NCBI GenBank assembly: GCA_024274695.1
Contig: JAJSAI010000024.1
Location: forward strand, 1 to 25,933
Length of the DNA: 25,933 bases
Direction: 5' to 3'
Source of the DNA: an archaeon
GTDB taxonomy: Archaea > B1Sed10-29 > JAJSAI01
Both the position numbers and the translations under genes were made by a program. Shown here piece by piece: positions 9,140 through 25,913 of the stretch. Every line of letters starts with the position of its first letter. The first letter of the stretch is position 1. The notes beneath the pieces are model-generated. The model was not told the DNA's origin and made no database searches. It saw nothing but the letters and a program-made list of their open reading frames with translations.

Positions 9140-10675
9140 TCAGGCTTTTCTCCTGAGTCTCTTGCAGGCGAAGTCAGGGTCAAGGCTTGCCAGGAAAGGG
9201 CCCAGCCTGGGGCCCCTGTCAGCGCCCAGTAAAAGCCTGTAGGCTGTTCTGAAGACCTCTCTCGCGCTCGCCCCTTCCTCTTCAGCGTACTCTCTGATCT
9301 TCTCTTGTAGGAGTGTGCCGTCAGCCCCTTTTTCCACGAGGTCCGCTATCCTTTCCAGCACCCTTGCTTCTTTCTCGGGCACGCTCACGCTAGGCAGTTC
9401 CTCCAGGACCTTGAACCTGAACTGTTCCGGCGCTACCTCGTTAACCCAGTTCCACGCTCTCTCAAGCCTTTCGGCCGCAAGCTTTCTGGACTCTTCCCCC
9501 GCGTCCTTCAGGTGCCCTGTCCTGCGCGTGAGTATCTCCAGGGCCCTTTCCTTGTTCCCGAGCGCCACCTGGATTATGTTAACGCAGACCGAGAACGGGA
9601 CCCTCACAGGCTTTTCTTCAGGCAGTCTTATCACCGCGAGGGAGTACCTTCTCCTCTCGTTATCATCCCCTTCTCCTGAGAAGAACGCTTCTTCCGCCTC
9701 GTCAAAATAGTTGTACGCGTTCAAGATGTCCTGGTCCAACGGCACTTCCAGGGCCTTGTTTATCTTCATGGTGTACAAGTACCTGAGCACCGCGGGCTCA
9801 AAGTACCTGAGGAGCTGCGAGACAGAAACCACGTTCCCAGCGCTGGAACTCATCTTCCCTTTCGCGCCCTTCAGGTAAATGAACTCGTACACTGGGCTTA
9901 TGGGGGGCTCGTGCCCGAAGATCTCTCTTGCTATGAGCACTCCTGTATCCCAGCTCCCCCCTGCAGCGTGGTGGTCTTTTCCCGCTGACTCAAAGTCAAC
10001 ATCATAGTGCGTCCACCTCATGGGCCAGTCAACACGCCACTTCAGCTTTACTATCCCCTTTTTCCTGAAGTCAAACTCTTCCGAGTGCCCGCAAGCGCAC
10101 GAGTACCTTATTCTGTACTCTCCGAGGTACTCTTGTTCCTGCACCTCTTTCCCGCACCTGCTGCAGTACACTACTGTGGGCATCCAGTCCGGAGGGTGGG
10201 GTTCTGACCTGAACCTGTTCAGGATATCCCTTATCCTGTTTCTGTTCTTGAGCGCGGTCTTCACCTCCTCAGCGAACCTGCACTCCACGTACTCCTCGGT
10301 CATGCGGACAACGCTTGCCACTATCCCCATTCTCTCAAGCTCTTCCAGCAAGGGCTCCTCGTAGTGCTCTGCGTAAGACTCGTGGCACCCGTGAGGATCT
10401 GGCACGCGGGACAACGGCATTCCAATGTATTCCCCGTACTCTTTCGGGACGCCCTTCGGGACCTTCCTGAACCTGTCGTAGTCGTCGAACACGAACTGGT
10501 GGACCGCGTTCACCCCTTTTTCTATGAGCGCCCGGTACACCAGGTCCTGGGTCATTATCTCTCTGAAGTTCCCCGCGTGCACGATCCCAGAAGGACTTAT
10601 CCCGGACTCCACAAGGTACTTCTCTTTTTCTTTCCTCCGGATGACCTGTTCAGCGTACTTGTCAGCCCAGTGCAT
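9140..10675 (-). CDS. lysS: Class I lysyl-tRNA synthetase
   Basis: MHWAD; SGISPSGIVHAGNFRE; KLKWRVDWPMRW; GKDH; KMSSS; GPRLGPF. Alternative GTG start at 10684. Confidence 0.97.
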   Translation of the reverse strand: MHWADKYAEQVIRRKEKEKYLVESGISPSGIVHAGNFREIMTQDLVYRALIEKGVNAVHQFVFDDYDRFRKVPKGVPKEYGEYIGMPLSRVPDPHGCHESYAEHYEEPLLEELERMGIVASVVRMTEEYVECRFAEEVKTALKNRNRIRDILNRFRSEPHPPDWMPTVVYCSRCGKEVQEQEYLGEYRIRYSCACGHSEEFDFRKKGIVKLKWRVDWPMRWTHYDVDFESAGKDHHAAGGSWDTGVLIAREIFGHEPPISPVYEFIYLKGAKGKMSSSAGNVVSVSQLLRYFEPAVLRYLYTMKINKALEVPLDQDILNAYNYFDEAEEAFFSGEGDDNERRRYSLAVIRLPEEKPVRVPFSVCVNIIQVALGNKERALEILTRRTGHLKDAGEESRKLAAERLERAWNWVNEVAPEQFRFKVLEELPSVSVPEKEARVLERIADLVEKGADGTLLQEKIREYAEEEGASAREVFRTAYRLLLGADRGPRLGPFLASLDPDFACKRLRRKA

Positions 10676-10680
10676 AAGAA

Positions 10681-11073
10681 TCACTTTCTCCTTTTTTCTG
10701 ACTTTTCAAGCTCTGCCTCAAGCTGCCCGAGCTTTTTGTCCAGCTCGAAGTTCAAGAGCACCAGCGCGTCGTTCCTTTTGACCTCCCGCAGGCTCGGGTT
10801 CACTGCAATGCTCTTCATCTGATTGTACAAGGACTTTATTTCTTCAAGCAGCTTCTCTTCTTGAGGGGTCATGCCTCCCCTGAACTTTATTCTTTCCACT
10901 GCCGCGTGAATCCTGTCCAGGTTCTCGTTGATCGCCTCCTGCAAGGGCTCCTCGTGAATCCTGCGGTATGCTCTGTCCACTGCCTGCGATTCAGAGGCCG
11001 CTCTTGCTCTCCTCCTGGAGACCTCAAGATCTTTTTTCAGGATCCTAAGCTTCCTTTTGGGCATGGTAACCAT
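10681..11073 (-). CDS. Hypothetical charged helical protein
   Basis: 130-aa K/E/R-rich ORF abutting the lysS start; TATA-like TTTTTTAA about 15-20 nt upstream. Confidence 0.7.
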   Translation of the reverse strand: MVTMPKRKLRILKKDLEVSRRRARAASESQAVDRAYRRIHEEPLQEAINENLDRIHAAVERIKFRGGMTPQEEKLLEEIKSLYNQMKSIAVNPSLREVKRNDALVLLNFELDKKLGQLEAELEKSEKRRK

Positions 11074-11095
11074 TACTCAGAACAAGTTAAAAAAC

Positions 11096-11118
11096 TGGCG
11101 GGCCCAGGGGGATCCGAA
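11096..11118 (-). repeat. Duplicated 3' end of tRNA-Lys (att-like), ending in CCA
   Basis: 11098-11118 matches 11321-11341 at 20/21 positions; minus strand reads TTCGGATCCCCCTGGGCCCGCCA then GTTTTTT. Confidence 0.9.
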
Positions 11119-11320
11119 AGGGGAGACACCTGCGGTTTCTCCCTCTACCCTCTTCCCTTTTTGGTTGGAATGAGAAATTGAAGGGAATAGGATAATCGGG
11201 GAATACCAAAAGGGCGTTGCCCTTTTGGATCATCTAGGAACCTTTGGTTCCTGGTATGGAACAGTAGATGCCCCTTACCGGTTCGGATGGGTTGATAAGG
11301 GCGGGGAAGGCGCCCTTATA
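11119..11320. mobile_element. ~200-bp non-coding hairpin-rich insert at the tRNA-Lys 3' end (mini integrated element or remnant)
   Basis: Bounded by the 21-bp direct repeat; at least five inverted repeats; shares modules with 25789-25933; no integrase in the window. Confidence 0.55.
11203..11257. repeat. 55-bp double-hairpin repeat, copy 1
   Basis: ATA-CCAAAAGGGC-GTT-GCCCTTTTGG-ATCAT-CTAGGAACC-TTT-GGTTCCTGG-TAT; homologous to 25859-25913. Confidence 0.9.
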
Positions 11321-11321
11321 G

Positions 11322-11396
11322 CGGGCCCAGGGGGATTCGAACCCCCGACACCCAGGTTAAGAGCCTGGTGCTCTAGCCAGACTGAGCTATGGGCCC
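11322..11396 (-). tRNA. tRNA-Lys (anticodon CTT), CCA not encoded
   Basis: GGGCCCA/TGGGCCC acceptor; CCAGG-CTCTTAA-CCTGG anticodon arm; GGGGG-TTCGAAT-CCCCC T arm. Confidence 0.97.
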
Positions 11397-11461: not shown

Positions 11462-11983
11462 ATGGCAAGGGTTACCGTCCTGCGGCTGGGGCACAGGCGG
11501 GAGAGGGACAAGAGGATATCCACGCACGTGGGCCTTGTCGCGAGAGCGTTCGGGGCCAGCGAGATAGTGTACTCAGGAGAAGAGGACGCAAGGCTTTTGG
11601 AGAGCGTGAACAGTGTTGCCCTGGAGTGGGGCGGGCCGTTCAAAGCCGCGTACCAGAAGGAATGGAAGAGGTTTATGAAAAACTTTCAGGGGATAAAGGT
11701 TCACTTGACAATGTACGGGATTCCTTTCCAGGAGAAACTTCCTGAGATAAGGTCTGCGGGGAAGGACGTGCTCGTGGTGGTCGGAGGAGAGAAAGTGCCT
11801 CCCGAGGCGTACCATCTCGCGGACTACAATCTCGCGGTCACGAGCCAGCCGCATTCTGAAGTCGCTGCCCTCGCGGTCTTCTTGTACGAGTACCACGAGC
11901 ACAGGGAGCCTGTTTTCAAGAGCCCACGCAAGATGATAGTCCCTCAGGAGAGGGGAAAGAAGGTTATTGAGAAAAACGGTTAA
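11462..11983 (+). CDS. trm56: tRNA (cytidine(56)-2'-O)-methyltransferase, SPOUT
   Basis: VLRLGHRRERDKRISTHVGLVARAFGA; VHLTMYG; VVGGEKVP; QPHSEVAALAVFL. TATA TTTTAAAA about 23 nt upstream. Confidence 0.96.
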   Translation: MARVTVLRLGHRRERDKRISTHVGLVARAFGASEIVYSGEEDARLLESVNSVALEWGGPFKAAYQKEWKRFMKNFQGIKVHLTMYGIPFQEKLPEIRSAGKDVLVVVGGEKVPPEAYHLADYNLAVTSQPHSEVAALAVFLYEYHEHREPVFKSPRKMIVPQERGKKVIEKNG

Positions 11984-20499: not shown

Positions 20500-20894
20500 T
20501 TTACTATCACCCTGCCCCCCTGGTTTTCCACGGTCTGGTTGCCCCCGTAGTTCCAGCCAAGCACTTCAACGTTCCCAGTGCACAAGGGGCTTGACGCGAA
20601 CATCTCCCCTGACTCAACAGTAACTGTCTTCTGCTCAGGAGAAAAGAACACAGTGTAGTTCAGGCCAGCGATCTTTTCCGGCAGGAAGAAAACACTCTGG
20701 TACCCCGGCAGGGATACTGCAGCAGTGTTTATCTCCATCGCGATCGCGTCAGCCTGCTTCTGCAGTTCCTCCTGCCTCCAGGCTGTCTTGAACTCAGCCT
20801 GTTTGGCCAGGAAGAACCCTGAGTATATTGTAAGCACTAGGAGCAAGAACATGGCAATGTACAGGAACTCCAGGCTCACCTGCGCTTTATTCAC
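20496..20894 (-). CDS. Minor pilin
   Basis: MNKA/QVSLEFLYIAMFLLLV. Confidence 0.87.
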   Translation of the reverse strand: MNKAQVSLEFLYIAMFLLLVLTIYSGFFLAKQAEFKTAWRQEELQKQADAIAMEINTAAVSLPGYQSVFFLPEKIAGLNYTVFFSPEQKTVTVESGEMFASSPLCTGNVEVLGWNYGGNQTVENQGGRVIVK

Positions 20895-23575
20895 CCGGAC
20901 ACCACCATGGGCACTGTCTCAACGTACGACTGTCTTATCATGGCTCCCACTGGCTTGTCAGCAGTCAGGTTGAACAAGTTTCCTGGGTCATAGCCTGCCA
21001 CCACCTGGTACCTGGAAACGTTGTACGTGCTGCTCCCAACGGTCACAGTAGTATTGTCCTGCAGCCCCAGTATCATGTAGTAGAACCCGCTGTACTGCAG
21101 GGGGAACATGAGCCTCTTTGAGGTCCCTGACGGCAGCACGAGCGGTGATGTTCCGTCAGCATACCATGCTATAACAGACCCTGCCAGGGGAGAGTCTGAG
21201 ATAACCTCAACCGAGGCGAACGGGTTGTCCGGGAAGGACGCGGTCACCCCGCAGGCGGTGGTGAGAGTGTCAATATCCGTGGTAAAGCTTCCCTTGGCAG
21301 GGATTACGGTGTTGTACCTGCATTCTATGTTCTGGCAGACAGAGTACCCGCTCCCGAGATCCTGGCACTCTCCGTAGTTTGCTGGCCTGACTATCAGCGT
21401 CACGTTGGCGTTCCCGAGAGGAGAGGACAAGAGGATGTTAGACCCCCACTTCTCGTACAACGGGGCGTACGCGTGCGTGAACAGGGACTCTTCAGAGTAT
21501 ATCACCGCGTTCTCCCCGTCGGGCTTCGCGTACGCGTGGCCCGAACCAGAGTACTCTATCTCAACAAGACCGTTTGTCACGGCAACGTACCTGCTGACAC
21601 TGCCGTTGTCCGCGAGGGCTCCCGAGTAAGTGCTCCTCTGGCCCCCGTTGGAGTAGTACGACGTGATCGTGTACGCTCCCCCCTGGTCCGCTGAAAGCAG
21701 GTAGTAGTCTGACGCGTACCCTGAAGCGTACCACTTCTTTCCTGAAGAAACATAGCCCATGGTGAAGGACTGCCATATGGGCGCCAGGGAAAGCGCGACA
21801 CTATTGTTACACTCTACCACTATCTTCCGCGGGTAATAACTCCATCCCGCGAAGGAGCTCACCTGCAGTGCCGTGACCCCTGAAACCGTTGCCGTGGTGG
21901 TGGCAGGAGTTCCCCCGGACGACCTGTACGCGGTTATGTTGCAGGACGCGGTCCCGTTGGCAGGGGCTAGCACCAGCACCGTGCTCCCGCTCTCGGCAGT
22001 AGCGTAAATCGTCTTCCCCGTAGAGAGAGTTCCCGATTCTGCCGGCGCGGCCCTTACCTCAAACGCCTTCTCTGCCTGCAGGTTCCACACCTGGTCTGCC
22101 ACGCGCACGGTCCAGTTGCCCGTGGGATCATCGGTCGTGATATTGTATGATCCGAGGAACCTCGTCTGGTTTGAGACAAAGTGCTGTTTTTGTGTTCCTG
22201 AAGAGTCCACAAGGTAGAGGTCGTACGTTGAAGTCCCGTTGGTCATGTTAACCTCGTAGTAGACCGTGCTGGGGCAGTTGTAGAACAGGGGGGCGTTCAC
22301 GCTCACGGTCTTCGGGGCCAGCGAGGGCCGTATCGTGTCAGTGTAAAAGAATGCTCCGGCAAAGCTTTTCCTTGCCCTTGAGGAGCTTGTTTCAAGCTCT
22401 GTTATCTGAATCCACGCGCTCCCGTCCCAGAGTTCTGCGTTCAGGTCGTACCCGTCATCCGTTATCAGGGCCATTACCCTGTTGGAATTAGGGTCAGGGT
22501 ACAGTTCTATCTCTCTTGGGTCCGTTGTCCCTGTGAGCATTGGCGCTTCAGCGCTCCATGTGCTCCCGTCCCACGTTCTGTAGTACGCGGGGTCAATGTT
22601 CCGTCTCCCGTAAACAACTACAGCCTTTTCAATGGTATAGTACGCTAGCCCGAAGTCAGGCCTCCAGCTCGCTTCAATGTTGGTGTTCAGCTCAGTGTTA
22701 GCTCCCCACTTGCTTCCGTCCCACGGCTGGCAGTTGATATCACTCGCGGCATCAAGAGAACAGAACATCATCCCTTCTCCTGCCGGCGCGGCCCTCAGTT
22801 TTATCCACCTCGGCCACGCTCCCACGCTGTTCAGGCTGGCCTGGGCGCTCCATGTGCTCCCGTCCCACACCCTGTATTTCGGGATGTTGTTCGCCTCTCC
22901 CCAGACGACTACAGCATGTCCTGTGTCGTGCTCGAAGGCAACGTCAAAATCCTGGTACCAGTAGTACCCAGTGCTGCCGAGCAGTACAGGAGAGCTCCAT
23001 CCCGTTCCGTCCCATGTCTGCGCGTACAGGTTGTAGTTAGCGTCCAAGGAGACCGCGACCGCCCTCGTGCTGTTGTACACCTCCAGGCGAACCCAGTAAA
23101 TGCTGGAGGAAGGAAGAGGGTTGAGGGACTGCTGGCTTCCCAGCGTGCTCGTGCCGGAGTCCCACACCCTGTACTTTAGGGTGCTCGTGCCGTCATAGTA
23201 TACTATCATCGCATTGCCAGTGTCGTTAAAGTACGCGATGTCAAACGGCCGGTACGTTGTGGCAACACCCGGCCCTCCGAGCAGCATCGGACCCTCCCAT
23301 CCTGTCCCGTTGAAAAAGTACAGCACGAGAACACCGTTCCCATTGTAGAACCCGAGCAAGGCCTCCTTGTATTCCGGGCTGGTCTTCAGGACCTTCCAGT
23401 AGTTGTTGCTGGCTCCCGCGTCAGGAAGGCTCTGTTCCGCGCCCCACGTGTTATCCCACACACGGTACCTGGGAACAGTCGCCGCTCCAGAGTCATAGTA
23501 AGACGCCACGAAAGACGCGGAATAGGATAATCCTAGCAGGACTGCCAGCACAGCAAGCGTTACACTCAAGCGCAT
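20891..23575 (-). CDS. 894-aa secreted protein with WDGxxW beta-propeller repeats; candidate pilus adhesin
   Basis: Sec-type signal peptide; eight ~50-aa repeats; beta-rich C-terminal domains; embedded in the minor pilin operon. Confidence 0.75.
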   Translation of the reverse strand: MRLSVTLAVLAVLLGLSYSASFVASYYDSGAATVPRYRVWDNTWGAEQSLPDAGASNNYWKVLKTSPEYKEALLGFYNGNGVLVLYFFNGTGWEGPMLLGGPGVATTYRPFDIAYFNDTGNAMIVYYDGTSTLKYRVWDSGTSTLGSQQSLNPLPSSSIYWVRLEVYNSTRAVAVSLDANYNLYAQTWDGTGWSSPVLLGSTGYYWYQDFDVAFEHDTGHAVVVWGEANNIPKYRVWDGSTWSAQASLNSVGAWPRWIKLRAAPAGEGMMFCSLDAASDINCQPWDGSKWGANTELNTNIEASWRPDFGLAYYTIEKAVVVYGRRNIDPAYYRTWDGSTWSAEAPMLTGTTDPREIELYPDPNSNRVMALITDDGYDLNAELWDGSAWIQITELETSSSRARKSFAGAFFYTDTIRPSLAPKTVSVNAPLFYNCPSTVYYEVNMTNGTSTYDLYLVDSSGTQKQHFVSNQTRFLGSYNITTDDPTGNWTVRVADQVWNLQAEKAFEVRAAPAESGTLSTGKTIYATAESGSTVLVLAPANGTASCNITAYRSSGGTPATTTATVSGVTALQVSSFAGWSYYPRKIVVECNNSVALSLAPIWQSFTMGYVSSGKKWYASGYASDYYLLSADQGGAYTITSYYSNGGQRSTYSGALADNGSVSRYVAVTNGLVEIEYSGSGHAYAKPDGENAVIYSEESLFTHAYAPLYEKWGSNILLSSPLGNANVTLIVRPANYGECQDLGSGYSVCQNIECRYNTVIPAKGSFTTDIDTLTTACGVTASFPDNPFASVEVISDSPLAGSVIAWYADGTSPLVLPSGTSKRLMFPLQYSGFYYMILGLQDNTTVTVGSSTYNVSRYQVVAGYDPGNLFNLTADKPVGAMIRQSYVETVPMVVSG

Positions 23576-25722: not shown

Positions 25723-25858
25723 GCTCTTATTATTGTTGAACCCTTTTATCCCTTTGGCAGAGGAAGGAACCCAGAAGCAGAGATGAAAAACAGTAGGTGC
25801 CCCTTATTCGGGTGAGGAGGGTAAAGAAAAATTTAGAAGGGAAAGGGGTAATAGGGGA

Positions 25859-25913
25859 ATACCAAAAGGCGAAGCCTTTTGGATTATCCAAGAACCCAGG
25901 GGGTTCTTGGTAT
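25859..25913. repeat. 55-bp double-hairpin repeat, copy 2
   Basis: ATA-CCAAAAGGC-GAA-GCCTTTTGG-ATTAT-CCAAGAACCC-AGG-GGGTTCTTGG-TAT; homologous to 11203-11257, with flank similarity extending about 30 bp 5'. Confidence 0.9.

What the first reader, a model, noticed from the sequence alone, without database searches (positions are those of the whole stretch)
11203..11257. Dispersed 55-bp double-hairpin/cloverleaf element with covariation (second copy 25859-25913)
Seen: both copies are exactly 55 bp. Arm 1 is one pair longer and arm 2 one pair shorter in copy 1. Arm 2 shows a compensatory G-C to A-T change and T-G to C-G, and the loops differ but are always 3 nt. Because CCAA/TTGG recurs, it can refold as a four-way junction (outer ATACCA(A)/(T)TGGTAT, middle TTGGA-TTA-TCCAA in copy 2). 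Copy 2 contains GCGAAGC. Known: GNA-triloop hairpins such as d(GCGAAGC) are exceptionally stable in ssDNA, and hairpins are substrates of HUH/Y1 enzymes (REP-RAYT, IS200/605). Inference: a structure-selected REP-like ssDNA element or switchable ncRNA family; I recognise no known match.
Basis: partly seen in the sequence, partly recalled or inferred. Interest (0 to 1): 0.85.

Follow-up and report, generated by a model that had tools for sequence, protein, structure and literature searches.

The report
Double-hairpin repeat in tRNA-linked cassettes
A 55-base stretch that folds into two hairpins is one of seven copies of a small repeat that, in this tiny archaeon, is found only inside a tRNA intron and in insertions just behind tRNA genes, so it shows at sequence level how such genes pick up extra DNA.

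Summary
Both 55-nt copies exist at the stated coordinates and fold as two adjacent 9-10-bp hairpins (z about -6.3). The assembly holds seven copies in five tRNA-linked elements. Pairing is kept through double changes: 97.6% of cells paired, 10 of 22 pairs, 0 of 500 shuffles.

The element is not dispersed. Every copy sits at one fixed site inside a ~40-nt hairpin unit that I call U. U, with or without the double hairpin, forms the core of long tRNA introns. It also forms insertions at tRNA 3' ends that are bounded by direct repeats of the T-loop-to-discriminator segment.

A same-genus genome lacks the double hairpin at all five orthologous loci. Two metagenome contigs skip the 223-nt insert.

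No Y1 HUH transposase, reverse transcriptase or Rfam match was found.

Best reading: a lineage-specific selfish palindromic module nested in mobile tRNA-intron-type cassettes. It is transcribed passively and removed during tRNA maturation. How it moves is inferred, not shown.

This scan had already noted similar hairpin modules in other Micrarchaeota genomes. I found no paper describing them.

The parts
11203..11257 (-). Double hairpin (DH), copy 1. It lies in the sense of the neighbouring tRNA gene, on the minus strand.
   Evidence: 89.4 bits, E 3.8e-20 on the minus strand against 24.9 bits on the plus strand
11258..11274 (-). Left half of host unit U, read in tRNA sense, directly upstream of DH copy 1.
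   Evidence: Read. Homologous flanks appear.
11180..11202 (-). Right half of host unit U, directly downstream of DH copy 1 in tRNA sense.
   Evidence: family D16, 88% identical to 25836-25869
11120..11159 (+). A second U unit without a double hairpin (empty), inverted relative to the first. Together they form the two arms of the insert.
   Evidence: exact match to both half patterns, 2-nt gap; folds as a small hairpin, -14 kcal/mol, z -2.25; arms pair in the 241-nt fold
11096..11118 (-). Distal copy of the tRNA T-loop-to-discriminator segment, followed by CCA. It is the ancestral 3' end of the gene and is orthologous to the 3' exon in the same-genus genome.
   Evidence: pattern match at 11118-11098; alignment with G001 continues through CCA, the T-run and the flank
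11089..11094 (-). Run of six T on the tRNA strand, the likely archaeal terminator of the tRNA transcription unit. It is conserved in G001.
   Evidence: That it acts as a terminator is inferred.
11295..11319 (-). A separate 9-bp trailer hairpin directly after the tRNA 3' end. It is a second repeat family that follows several tRNA genes.
   Evidence: -12.5 kcal/mol, z -3.77; copies after tRNA-Pro(GGG), after tRNA-Ala(GGC) and on C7; copies in G001
11321..11396 (-). tRNA-Lys(CTT) gene. Its last 21 nt (11321-11341) are the proximal copy of the direct repeat.
11098..11320 (-). The whole 223-nt insert E1 (one repeat copy plus body). It is absent from two metagenome contigs. In G001 an unrelated ~80-nt T-loop intron occupies the place.
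   Evidence: joints 11097->11321 and 11112->11336, each skipping 223
25859..25913 (-). Double hairpin, copy 2, in the 3' trailer of tRNA-Lys(TTT). That gene lies on the adjoining contig C22.
   Evidence: contig adjacency
25914..25931 (-). Left half of U next to copy 2.
   Evidence: identical to the empty U in the tRNA-Arg(TCG) intron on C9
25836..25858 (-). Right half of U next to copy 2.
25790..25803 (-). Truncated further copy of the U left half, with no double hairpin and no right half.
   Evidence: Read (compare C26:47351-47369).

Best explanation
The 55-nt double hairpin is a lineage-specific palindromic module. It is nested at one fixed site in the 3' side of the loop of an older ~40-nt hairpin unit, U.

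U, with or without the module, is the building block of two kinds of tRNA-linked DNA in this small DPANN archaeon. Earlier notes of the scan call it Micrarchaeota; I did not test that label.
(i) Long bulge-helix-bulge introns of tRNA genes.
(ii) Inserts of 64 to about 290 nt at the 3' ends of tRNA genes, bounded by direct repeats of the T-loop-to-discriminator segment.

These cassettes multiplied at the DNA level after this lineage split from its congener. They are transcribed passively as part of pre-tRNAs. They are then removed by the splicing endonuclease (intron copy) or by 3'-end processing (trailer copies), so they cost the cell little.

Shown: copy number, fixed nesting site, one filled/empty pair, absence at orthologous loci, and compensatory change.

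Inferred:
- The inserts spread between tRNA genes by recombination or gene conversion through the ~21-nt tRNA-end homology that flanks them.
- The hairpin complementarity is kept because propagation or tolerance needs a compact self-paired form (ssDNA/cruciform or RNA).
- The double hairpin itself has no cellular function.
For: 1. There are seven copies, all tRNA-linked: four tRNA 3' inserts or trailers (Lys-CTT, Lys-TTT, Arg-TCT with two copies, Arg-CCG with two copies) and the 105-nt 37/38 intron of tRNA-Pro(CGG).

2. All copies sit at the same junction of U. Five further U units in the genome are empty (window 11120-11159, C26:47229, C32:2469, C22:10147, C9 intron). The empty U in the tRNA-Arg(TCG) intron is identical over 18 nt on one side and 23 nt on the other to the filled U of copy 2. 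The junction is exact except for one ambiguous T.

3. In same-genus G001, 5 of 5 orthologous loci lack the module. tRNA-Pro(CGG) is intronless there (74 nt against 179 nt). tRNA-Lys(TTT), Arg(CCG) and Arg(TCT) have plain flanks. tRNA-Lys(CTT) has a different ~80-nt intron at 59/60 with the same 3' exon, CCA and T-run. The model finds no match in G001, although G001 has empty U units.

4. One contig in each of two runs from two studies skips exactly 223 nt at the Lys(CTT) insert.

5. Covariation: 97.6% of cells paired against 88.0% when shuffled; 10 of 22 pairs have changes on both sides; 0 of 500 shuffles reach this; slid controls give 28-57% paired.

6. Orientation is not fixed. One copy is inverted, in the inverted U arm at C26:46702-46777. 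The related copy in G008 lies antisense inside a tRNA D-loop intron.

7. The direct repeats follow the local tRNA. Lys-type and Arg(TCT)-type T-stems each occur in both copies of their repeats. A different acceptor occurs in both copies at C22:10134. The repeat at Arg(CCG) is a hybrid.
Against: - No enzyme that could move it was found. There is one tyrosine recombinase of housekeeping size on another contig. There is no Y1 HUH, no TnpB above cut-off and no RT. The assembly is 91% complete, and repeats break it.
- Only one filled/empty pair with identical flanks exists, so it could be a precise loss rather than a gain.
- Each U variant carries its own double-hairpin variant. That fits copying of the composite unit as well as, or better than, independent movement of the 55 nt.
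- Six of seven copies have the same orientation relative to the tRNA, which would also fit an RNA-level role.
- A related U-plus-double-hairpin in another family of the order suggests the composite is old. If so, its absence from G001 could be loss.
- The covariation set has only six distinct sequences from one genome. Two of the ten double changes come from a one-pair register shift (pairs 48-59 and 50-57).
- The metagenome joints were laid at 80% likeness, with one contig each.
Confidence: 0.6

Rival explanations
1. REP/REPIN- or IS200/IS605-type element. The two hairpins are recognised in single-stranded DNA by a Y1 HUH transposase acting in trans, which cuts and pastes the 55 nt without target duplication.
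For: - Two stable hairpins with short terminal inverted repeats.
- A filled/empty junction with no target duplication beyond one ambiguous T.
- Insertion in the loop region of another hairpin.
Against: - No PF01797 match in the own genome (0 of 1; the control search hit 6 of 14 reference genomes).
- The only TnpB-like signal is below cut-off (20.4 bits against 26.3).
- Only seven copies, none in ordinary intergenic DNA.
- Double-hairpin variants co-vary with their host U variants.
Confidence: 0.12
2. Functional RNA structure. The double hairpin is a cis-acting part of pre-tRNA transcripts (stabiliser, processing or termination signal) or of a stable or circular intron RNA.
For: - Six of seven copies lie in tRNA sense.
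- No T-run interrupts the insert before the conserved T6 after the distal CCA, so it is probably co-transcribed (inference).
- Compensatory changes keep both helices.
- A splicing endonuclease gene is present.
Against: - Absent at 5 of 5 orthologous loci in the congener, and 0 matches in 59 of 60 other relatives searched.
- One inverted copy in G000, and an antisense copy in G008.
- No Rfam match.
- By eye there is no conserved C/D-box or K-turn-like motif in the spacer across variants.
- Wobble pairs do not favour one strand: two favour the plus strand and one the minus strand.
Confidence: 0.13
3. Scars of tRNA-integrating plasmids or viruses. The inserts are decayed ends of integrase-mediated integrations. 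The direct repeats are attL/attR, and the double hairpin is an arm-type or origin structure next to attP.
For: - Direct repeats covering the T-loop to the 3' end of tRNA genes are what integrative elements leave. This is established knowledge; see the Sugahara 2012 abstract and passages of PMC4090602.
- All distal repeats start at the same T-loop position.
- Low-GC DNA lies just beyond the distal repeat at tRNA-Arg(CCG).
Against: - No integrase next to any copy. The low-GC neighbour encodes radical-SAM/SPASM fragments.
- Only one tyrosine recombinase in the genome, on C4.
- The same U unit forms the core of three canonical-position introns with no repeats.
- One element family would need a different attP for each of at least three kinds of tRNA end.
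- No match to the double hairpin or to U in viral contigs: 1 chance hit lacking the first hairpin, and 0 hits.
Confidence: 0.1

Closest known systems
Transposing tRNA introns of Thermoproteales (Fujishima et al. 2010, Mol Biol Evol 27:2233). I saw this only as cited in passages of PMC4090602 and PMC3239211.
   Same: - Near-identical sequence blocks occur in introns of non-orthologous tRNA genes. Here U is in the introns of Pro-CGG, Pro-TGG and Arg-TCG, and in Thr-CGT of G001.
- Intron presence or absence differs between close relatives.
- The mechanism is unknown.
   Different: - Here the shared block also occurs outside introns, in repeat-flanked inserts at tRNA 3' ends.
- The block carries a nested 55-nt double hairpin.
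- The host is a DPANN archaeon, not a crenarchaeon.
Non-canonical 59/60 and 53/54 T-loop introns of Ca. Micrarchaeum (ARMAN-2), cut by the epsilon-2 endonuclease (PMC3239211, passages)
   Same: - The congener's tRNA-Lys(CTT) has an intron exactly at 59/60. By my hand reading its geometry is 4+3 nt on each side.
- The insert in this window occupies the same place between the T-loop and the 3' exon.
   Different: - The window's insert begins with a second full copy of the 3' exon, so no splicing is needed.
- By my hand reading its 3' junction lacks a 3-nt bulge.
Bacterial REP/BIME/REPIN repeats mobilised by RAYT Y1 transposases (recalled, not from a call)
   Same: Short imperfect palindromes occurring as doublets. 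Hairpin pairing is conserved through compensatory change. They are non-coding and lineage-specific.
   Different: - No RAYT/Y1 gene.
- Seven copies, not hundreds.
- Never in ordinary intergenic DNA.
- The two hairpins are tandem, not an inverted REP pair.
Integration of mobile elements into archaeal tRNA genes as a route to intron gain (Sugahara et al. 2012, PMC3293823, abstract only)
   Same: Duplicated tRNA fragments flank inserted DNA, and intron-bearing and intron-free forms of one tRNA gene exist among close relatives.
   Different: That case involves a 1.8-kb element with a recombinase gene. Here the inserts are 64 to about 290 nt, non-coding, and made of hairpin units.
MITEs and IS200/IS605-derived palindrome-associated elements (recalled)
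   Same: Tiny non-autonomous DNA with terminal inverted repeats and hairpins, inserted without (IS200/605) or with (MITE) target duplication.
   Different: No parent IS in the genome. At 55 nt it is far below usual MITE size. A single nesting site inside another repeat.

Membership tests
REP/REPIN-RAYT system | A cognate Y1 HUH (RAYT) gene in the genome | tested here: not met
   PF01797: 0 matches in the own genome (91% complete). The control search hit 6 of 14 reference genomes.
REP/REPIN-RAYT system | Many copies dispersed in extragenic DNA | tested here: not met
   Seven copies, all inside tRNA-linked cassettes. A scan for hairpins with the same closing pairs found none elsewhere.
IS200/IS605-derived miniature element | Insertion without target-site duplication | tested here: inconclusive
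   One filled/empty pair with identical flanks shows no duplication beyond one ambiguous T. One pair only, and the direction (gain or loss) is unknown.
IS200/IS605-derived miniature element | TnpA (Y1) and/or TnpB partner | tested here: not met
   One search gives 0 matches. One search gives one match at 20.4 bits, below the 26.3-bit cut-off.
MITE | Terminal inverted repeats plus a target-site duplication of fixed length | tested here: not met
   Short terminal inverted repeats are present, but no duplication at the filled/empty junction.
Archaeal bulge-helix-bulge tRNA intron (applies to the tRNA-Pro(CGG) copy) | Removal of the insert restores a canonical tRNA | tested here: met
   G000 gene is 179 nt and the G001 ortholog 74 nt. 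The sequences are collinear outside a 105-nt block at 37/38.
Archaeal bulge-helix-bulge tRNA intron (applies to the tRNA-Pro(CGG) copy) | 3-4-3 bulge-helix-bulge motif at the exon-intron junctions | tested here: inconclusive
   By hand on the sequence, loop positions 32-35 can pair 4 of 4 with the four intron bases that precede the last two. No tool scored the motif. The cleavage geometry is partly recalled and partly from PMC3239211 passages.
Archaeal bulge-helix-bulge tRNA intron (applies to the tRNA-Pro(CGG) copy) | Splicing endonuclease encoded | tested here: met
   PF01974 match on C23:7541-7801, 110.6 bits against a cut-off of 27.
Archaeal bulge-helix-bulge intron (the 55 nt itself as a nested intron) | Bulge-helix-bulge motif at the borders of the 55 nt | tested here: not met
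   By hand, there is no exon-exon helix next to the junction, and the four-base central helix does not pair.
Transposing tRNA-intron families | The same sequence block in introns of non-orthologous tRNA genes | tested here: met
   U is in the introns of tRNA-Pro(CGG), Pro(TGG) and Arg(TCG) of G000 and Thr(CGT) of G001.
Integrase-type integrative element (att scars) | Integrase gene within or beside the element | tested here: not met
   One PF00589 match in the genome, on C4, not near any copy. Neighbours of the copies have no integrase domain.
Any Rfam family | Match at or near the gathering score | tested here: not met
   Only tRNA passes. At E <= 1, nothing credible overlaps 11203-11257.

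The most novel reading that the evidence does not exclude
U cassettes and their nested hairpin modules are the physical vehicles by which these archaea gain tRNA introns.

The same non-coding hairpin DNA is copied into tRNA genes through short homology with tRNA loops and ends. It survives as an intron where the insertion happens to form a bulge-helix-bulge motif (37/38, 59/60). Where it does not, it survives as a repeat-flanked 3' insert.

The three states of tRNA-Lys(CTT) would then be snapshots of this process: no insert, a 59/60 intron, and a 223-nt insert with a duplicated 3' exon. The hairpins would promote the DNA breaks or template switches that drive copying.
Probability: 0.3. Interest if true: 0.8.

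Novelty: new variant of a known kind. Interest (0 to 1): 0.55.

Why it matters
How archaeal tRNA introns arrive is still open. A 2026 preprint on Asgard tRNA introns concludes that 'how they arrive remains open' (abstract). A 2014 review calls the mechanism of intron transposition unknown (passage).

In this genome, one small genome and its congener show the same hairpin unit in three settings:
- as an intron core;
- as a recently gained (or recently lost in the congener) 105-nt intron;
- as repeat-flanked inserts at tRNA 3' ends.

A nested double hairpin marks the youngest copies. That gives concrete substrates for splicing assays and for population-level tests of insertion.

The 55-nt element on its own is probably a passenger with no cellular function.

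Tried and rejected
1. Genome contigs pattern scan (after a format error). The pattern was too loose.

2. Metagenome contigs pattern scan. It gave 10 loci. The model matched only the second hairpin, which the pattern itself specified. I accepted none as a true double hairpin.

3. Viral-contig scans. One hit lacked the first hairpin. There were 0 hits for the U motif.

4. Sequencing runs. No RNA holder was listed, and all 13 rows held small shares. Nothing can be said about expression or habitat.

5. The 55 nt as a nested bulge-helix-bulge intron. Rejected by hand (no motif at its borders).

6. C/D-box or K-turn reading of the spacer. One variant resembles a C box, but the motif is not kept in the other variants (by eye).

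7. The 223-nt insert as a spliced 59/60 intron. Undecided. By hand, the four-base helix can form but abuts the exon without a 3-nt bulge. A register in the palindromic acceptor segment is possible on paper but competes with the acceptor stem.

8. Regex catalogue of U units. It found only 4 of the roughly 12 units that I listed by eye, so the filled/empty tally is partly manual.

I read the coordinates by hand.

10. ISfinder is not available here. Supplements of the cited papers were not opened.

Full report
OBSERVATION

Each folds into two adjacent hairpins of 9-10 pairs with 3-nt loops. The energies are -28.5 and -28.4 kcal/mol, the z-scores -6.33 and -6.28, and 0 of 200 shuffles fold as well.

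The similarity also runs into both flanks. Copy 2 sits in a 129-146-nt repeat shared by four contig ends.

WHERE THE WINDOW LIES

The window is a whole contig (C19) of an 825-kb, 32-contig assembly that is 91% complete. Earlier notes of this scan call the organism a DPANN archaeon of the Micrarchaeota. I did not test that label.

COPIES

A covariance model from five copies finds nine top-strand matches at E <= 1.6e-11 in the genome. Four of them are at contig ends. The overlaps are identical, and the same-genus genome G001 is syntenic. Together these join C19 to C22 and C26 to C27, which leaves seven genomic copies:
- one behind tRNA-Lys(CTT), in the window;
- one behind tRNA-Lys(TTT), at the window end plus C22;
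- two behind tRNA-Arg(TCT);
- two behind tRNA-Arg(CCG), one of them inverted;
- one inside a 105-nt intron at 37/38 of a tRNA-Pro(CGG) gene that ARAGORN missed.

Six of the seven lie in the sense of the tRNA.

THE HOST UNIT

Every copy sits at the same junction inside a ~40-nt unit, U. U folds on its own as a small hairpin. The double hairpin lies on the 3' side of its loop, so the filled unit can form a closing stem with branches.

At least five U units in the genome are empty. The empty U in the intron of tRNA-Arg(TCG) on C9 is identical to the flanks of copy 2 over 18 nt and 23 nt. The junction is exact apart from one ambiguous T. This is the only clean filled/empty pair, and it shows no target duplication.

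Each U variant carries its own double-hairpin variant. So most copies probably arose by copying the composite unit.

THE 3' INSERTS

In the window, the tRNA-Lys(CTT) gene (11321-11396, minus strand) is followed by these parts in order:
- a separate trailer hairpin (11295-11319);
- U with the double hairpin (11180-11274);
- an inverted empty U (11120-11159);
- a second copy of the tRNA's last 21 nt with one mismatch (11098-11118), running into CCA and a run of six T.

In G001 the orthologous gene has the same 3' exon, CCA, T-run and flank. There the 3' exon is separated from the T-loop by an unrelated ~80-nt intron at 59/60. That position is documented for Ca. Micrarchaeum and is cut in vitro by its endonuclease (PMC3239211, passages).

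Two metagenome contigs, one in each of two runs from two studies, join the tRNA directly to the flank and skip exactly 223 nt. This is weak support, because the contigs were laid at 80% likeness.

So the same gene exists in three states.

Repeat-flanked inserts built on U occur at other tRNA genes as well:
- A matched 21-nt repeat at tRNA-Arg(TCT).
- A hybrid repeat at tRNA-Arg(CCG), where the distal copy carries the Arg(TCT)-type T-stem.
- A perfect 20-nt repeat of a quite different acceptor at C22:10134. Its counterpart in G001 has a 29-nt repeat that runs into the downstream T-run.

All distal repeats start at the first base of the T-loop.

COMPARISON WITH THE CONGENER

G001 lacks the double hairpin at all five orthologous loci:
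- tRNA-Pro(CGG) is intronless, 74 nt against 179 nt.
- tRNA-Lys(TTT), Arg(CCG) and Arg(TCT) have plain 3' flanks.
- tRNA-Lys(CTT) is as described above.

The model has no match in G001. G001 does have empty U units, one in a tRNA-Thr(CGT) intron and one in a repeat-flanked insert.

DISTRIBUTION

The model matches 2 of 61 genomes among relatives and 2 of 18 in the order. In both counts these are the own genome and G008, which belongs to another family. G008 has two copies of a unit with U-like flanks and two hairpins, one of which resembles the second hairpin here. One of these copies lies antisense inside a tRNA D-loop intron.

STRUCTURE CONSERVATION

I used six distinct variants and a hand-written structure of 22 pairs. 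In that structure the first helix extends by three pairs into the flank and spacer.
- 97.6% of cells pair, against 88.0% when shuffled.
- 10 pairs have changes on both sides.
- 0 of 500 shuffles reach the observed values.
- Slid controls drop to 28-57% paired.

Two of the ten double changes reflect a one-pair register shift. All six sequences come from one genome. Wobble pairs and mismatches do not single out a strand.

ENZYMES AND KNOWN FAMILIES

- One tyrosine recombinase, on another contig.
- No Y1 HUH.
- No TnpB above cut-off.
- No RT.
- A splicing endonuclease is present.
- Neighbouring genes are class I LysRS, aTrm56 and, on C26, radical-SAM fragments in low-GC DNA. None is an integrase.
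- No Rfam family matches.
- No viral contig carries the element.

HOW IT MOST LIKELY WORKS

Shown: a lineage-specific, structure-conserving module nested in a repeat unit that populates tRNA introns and tRNA 3' inserts.

Inferred:
- The inserts carry tRNA-end homology on both sides. Recombination or gene conversion can therefore copy them into other tRNA genes that share that end. This would explain the matched and hybrid repeats, the restriction of four inserts to tRNA genes with the same acceptor 3' strand, and the lack of a transposase.
- The cassettes persist in introns and trailers because a 0.8-Mb genome has few other places where extra DNA is harmless, and because tRNA maturation removes them.
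- The hairpins are kept because the selfish unit must stay compact, or because hairpin or cruciform DNA promotes its copying.

KNOWN AND NEW

The closest described phenomenon is intron transposition in Thermoproteales, together with the integration model of tRNA gene disruption. Small palindromic repeats such as REP are the closest formal analogue.

Five full-text searches found no paper describing hairpin repeat modules shared by tRNA introns and tRNA-end inserts in DPANN archaea. The library lacks most subscription journals, and I opened no supplements.

This scan had already noted comparable modules in at least eight other findings on other genomes. My results agree with those notes but were obtained independently, on this genome and its congener.

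LIMITS

- No expression data.
- One genome supplies almost all copies.
- The catalogue of U units and the bulge-helix-bulge readings are partly manual.
- The assembly breaks in these repeats.
- The direction of the single filled/empty difference is unknown.

Noticed in passing
window 11295-11319; also G000 C32:44760-44795, C24:38365-38387, C7:19186-19220; G001 loci L144, L145, L146: A second hairpin family (9-bp stem, 7-nt loop) sits directly after the 3' end of several tRNA genes (Lys-CTT, Pro-GGG, Ala-GGC). It is shared with the same-genus genome, once in tandem. It could be a conserved tRNA trailer or terminator structure, or another mobile hairpin.
   Followed up: partly
G000 C32:9170-9348, C32:2427-2600, C9:13045-13229, C22 and C27 contig ends, C12:~21449-21580: Several tRNA genes with long or non-canonical introns are missed by ARAGORN: Pro-CGG (105 nt), Pro-TGG, Arg-TCG, Lys-TTT with a D-loop intron, and Arg-TCT. 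The genome's tRNA count of 31 is therefore an underestimate.
   Followed up: partly
window 11098-11118 and 11321-11341; G000 C22, C26, C27: The four tRNA genes that carry the double-hairpin inserts share an acceptor 3' strand whose core six bases are self-complementary. The proximal and distal repeat copies can therefore pair with each other (the 8-bp helix in the fold).
   Followed up: no
window 9140-11073 and 11462-11983: tRNA-Lys(CTT) lies between a class I lysyl-tRNA synthetase gene (with a small upstream ORF that has no Pfam match) and an aTrm56 tRNA methyltransferase gene.
   Followed up: no
window 22551-22881: Three ~37-nt direct repeats spaced 150 and 144 nt apart lie inside the 894-aa ORF (20891-23575, minus strand). 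They suggest internal protein repeats of about 50 residues.
   Followed up: no
G000 C26:45000-46700: About 1.7 kb of low-GC DNA (about 38% against 52%) lies just beyond the distal repeat of the tRNA-Arg(CCG) insert. It encodes what look like two pieces of a radical-SAM/SPASM protein. G001 has a different gene at this place.
   Followed up: partly
G001 C5:12205-12410 against G000 C26:47170-47205: By eye, a small open frame of about 70 codons lies between two tRNA genes in G001. It has no counterpart in G000, where the double-hairpin insert ends.
   Followed up: no
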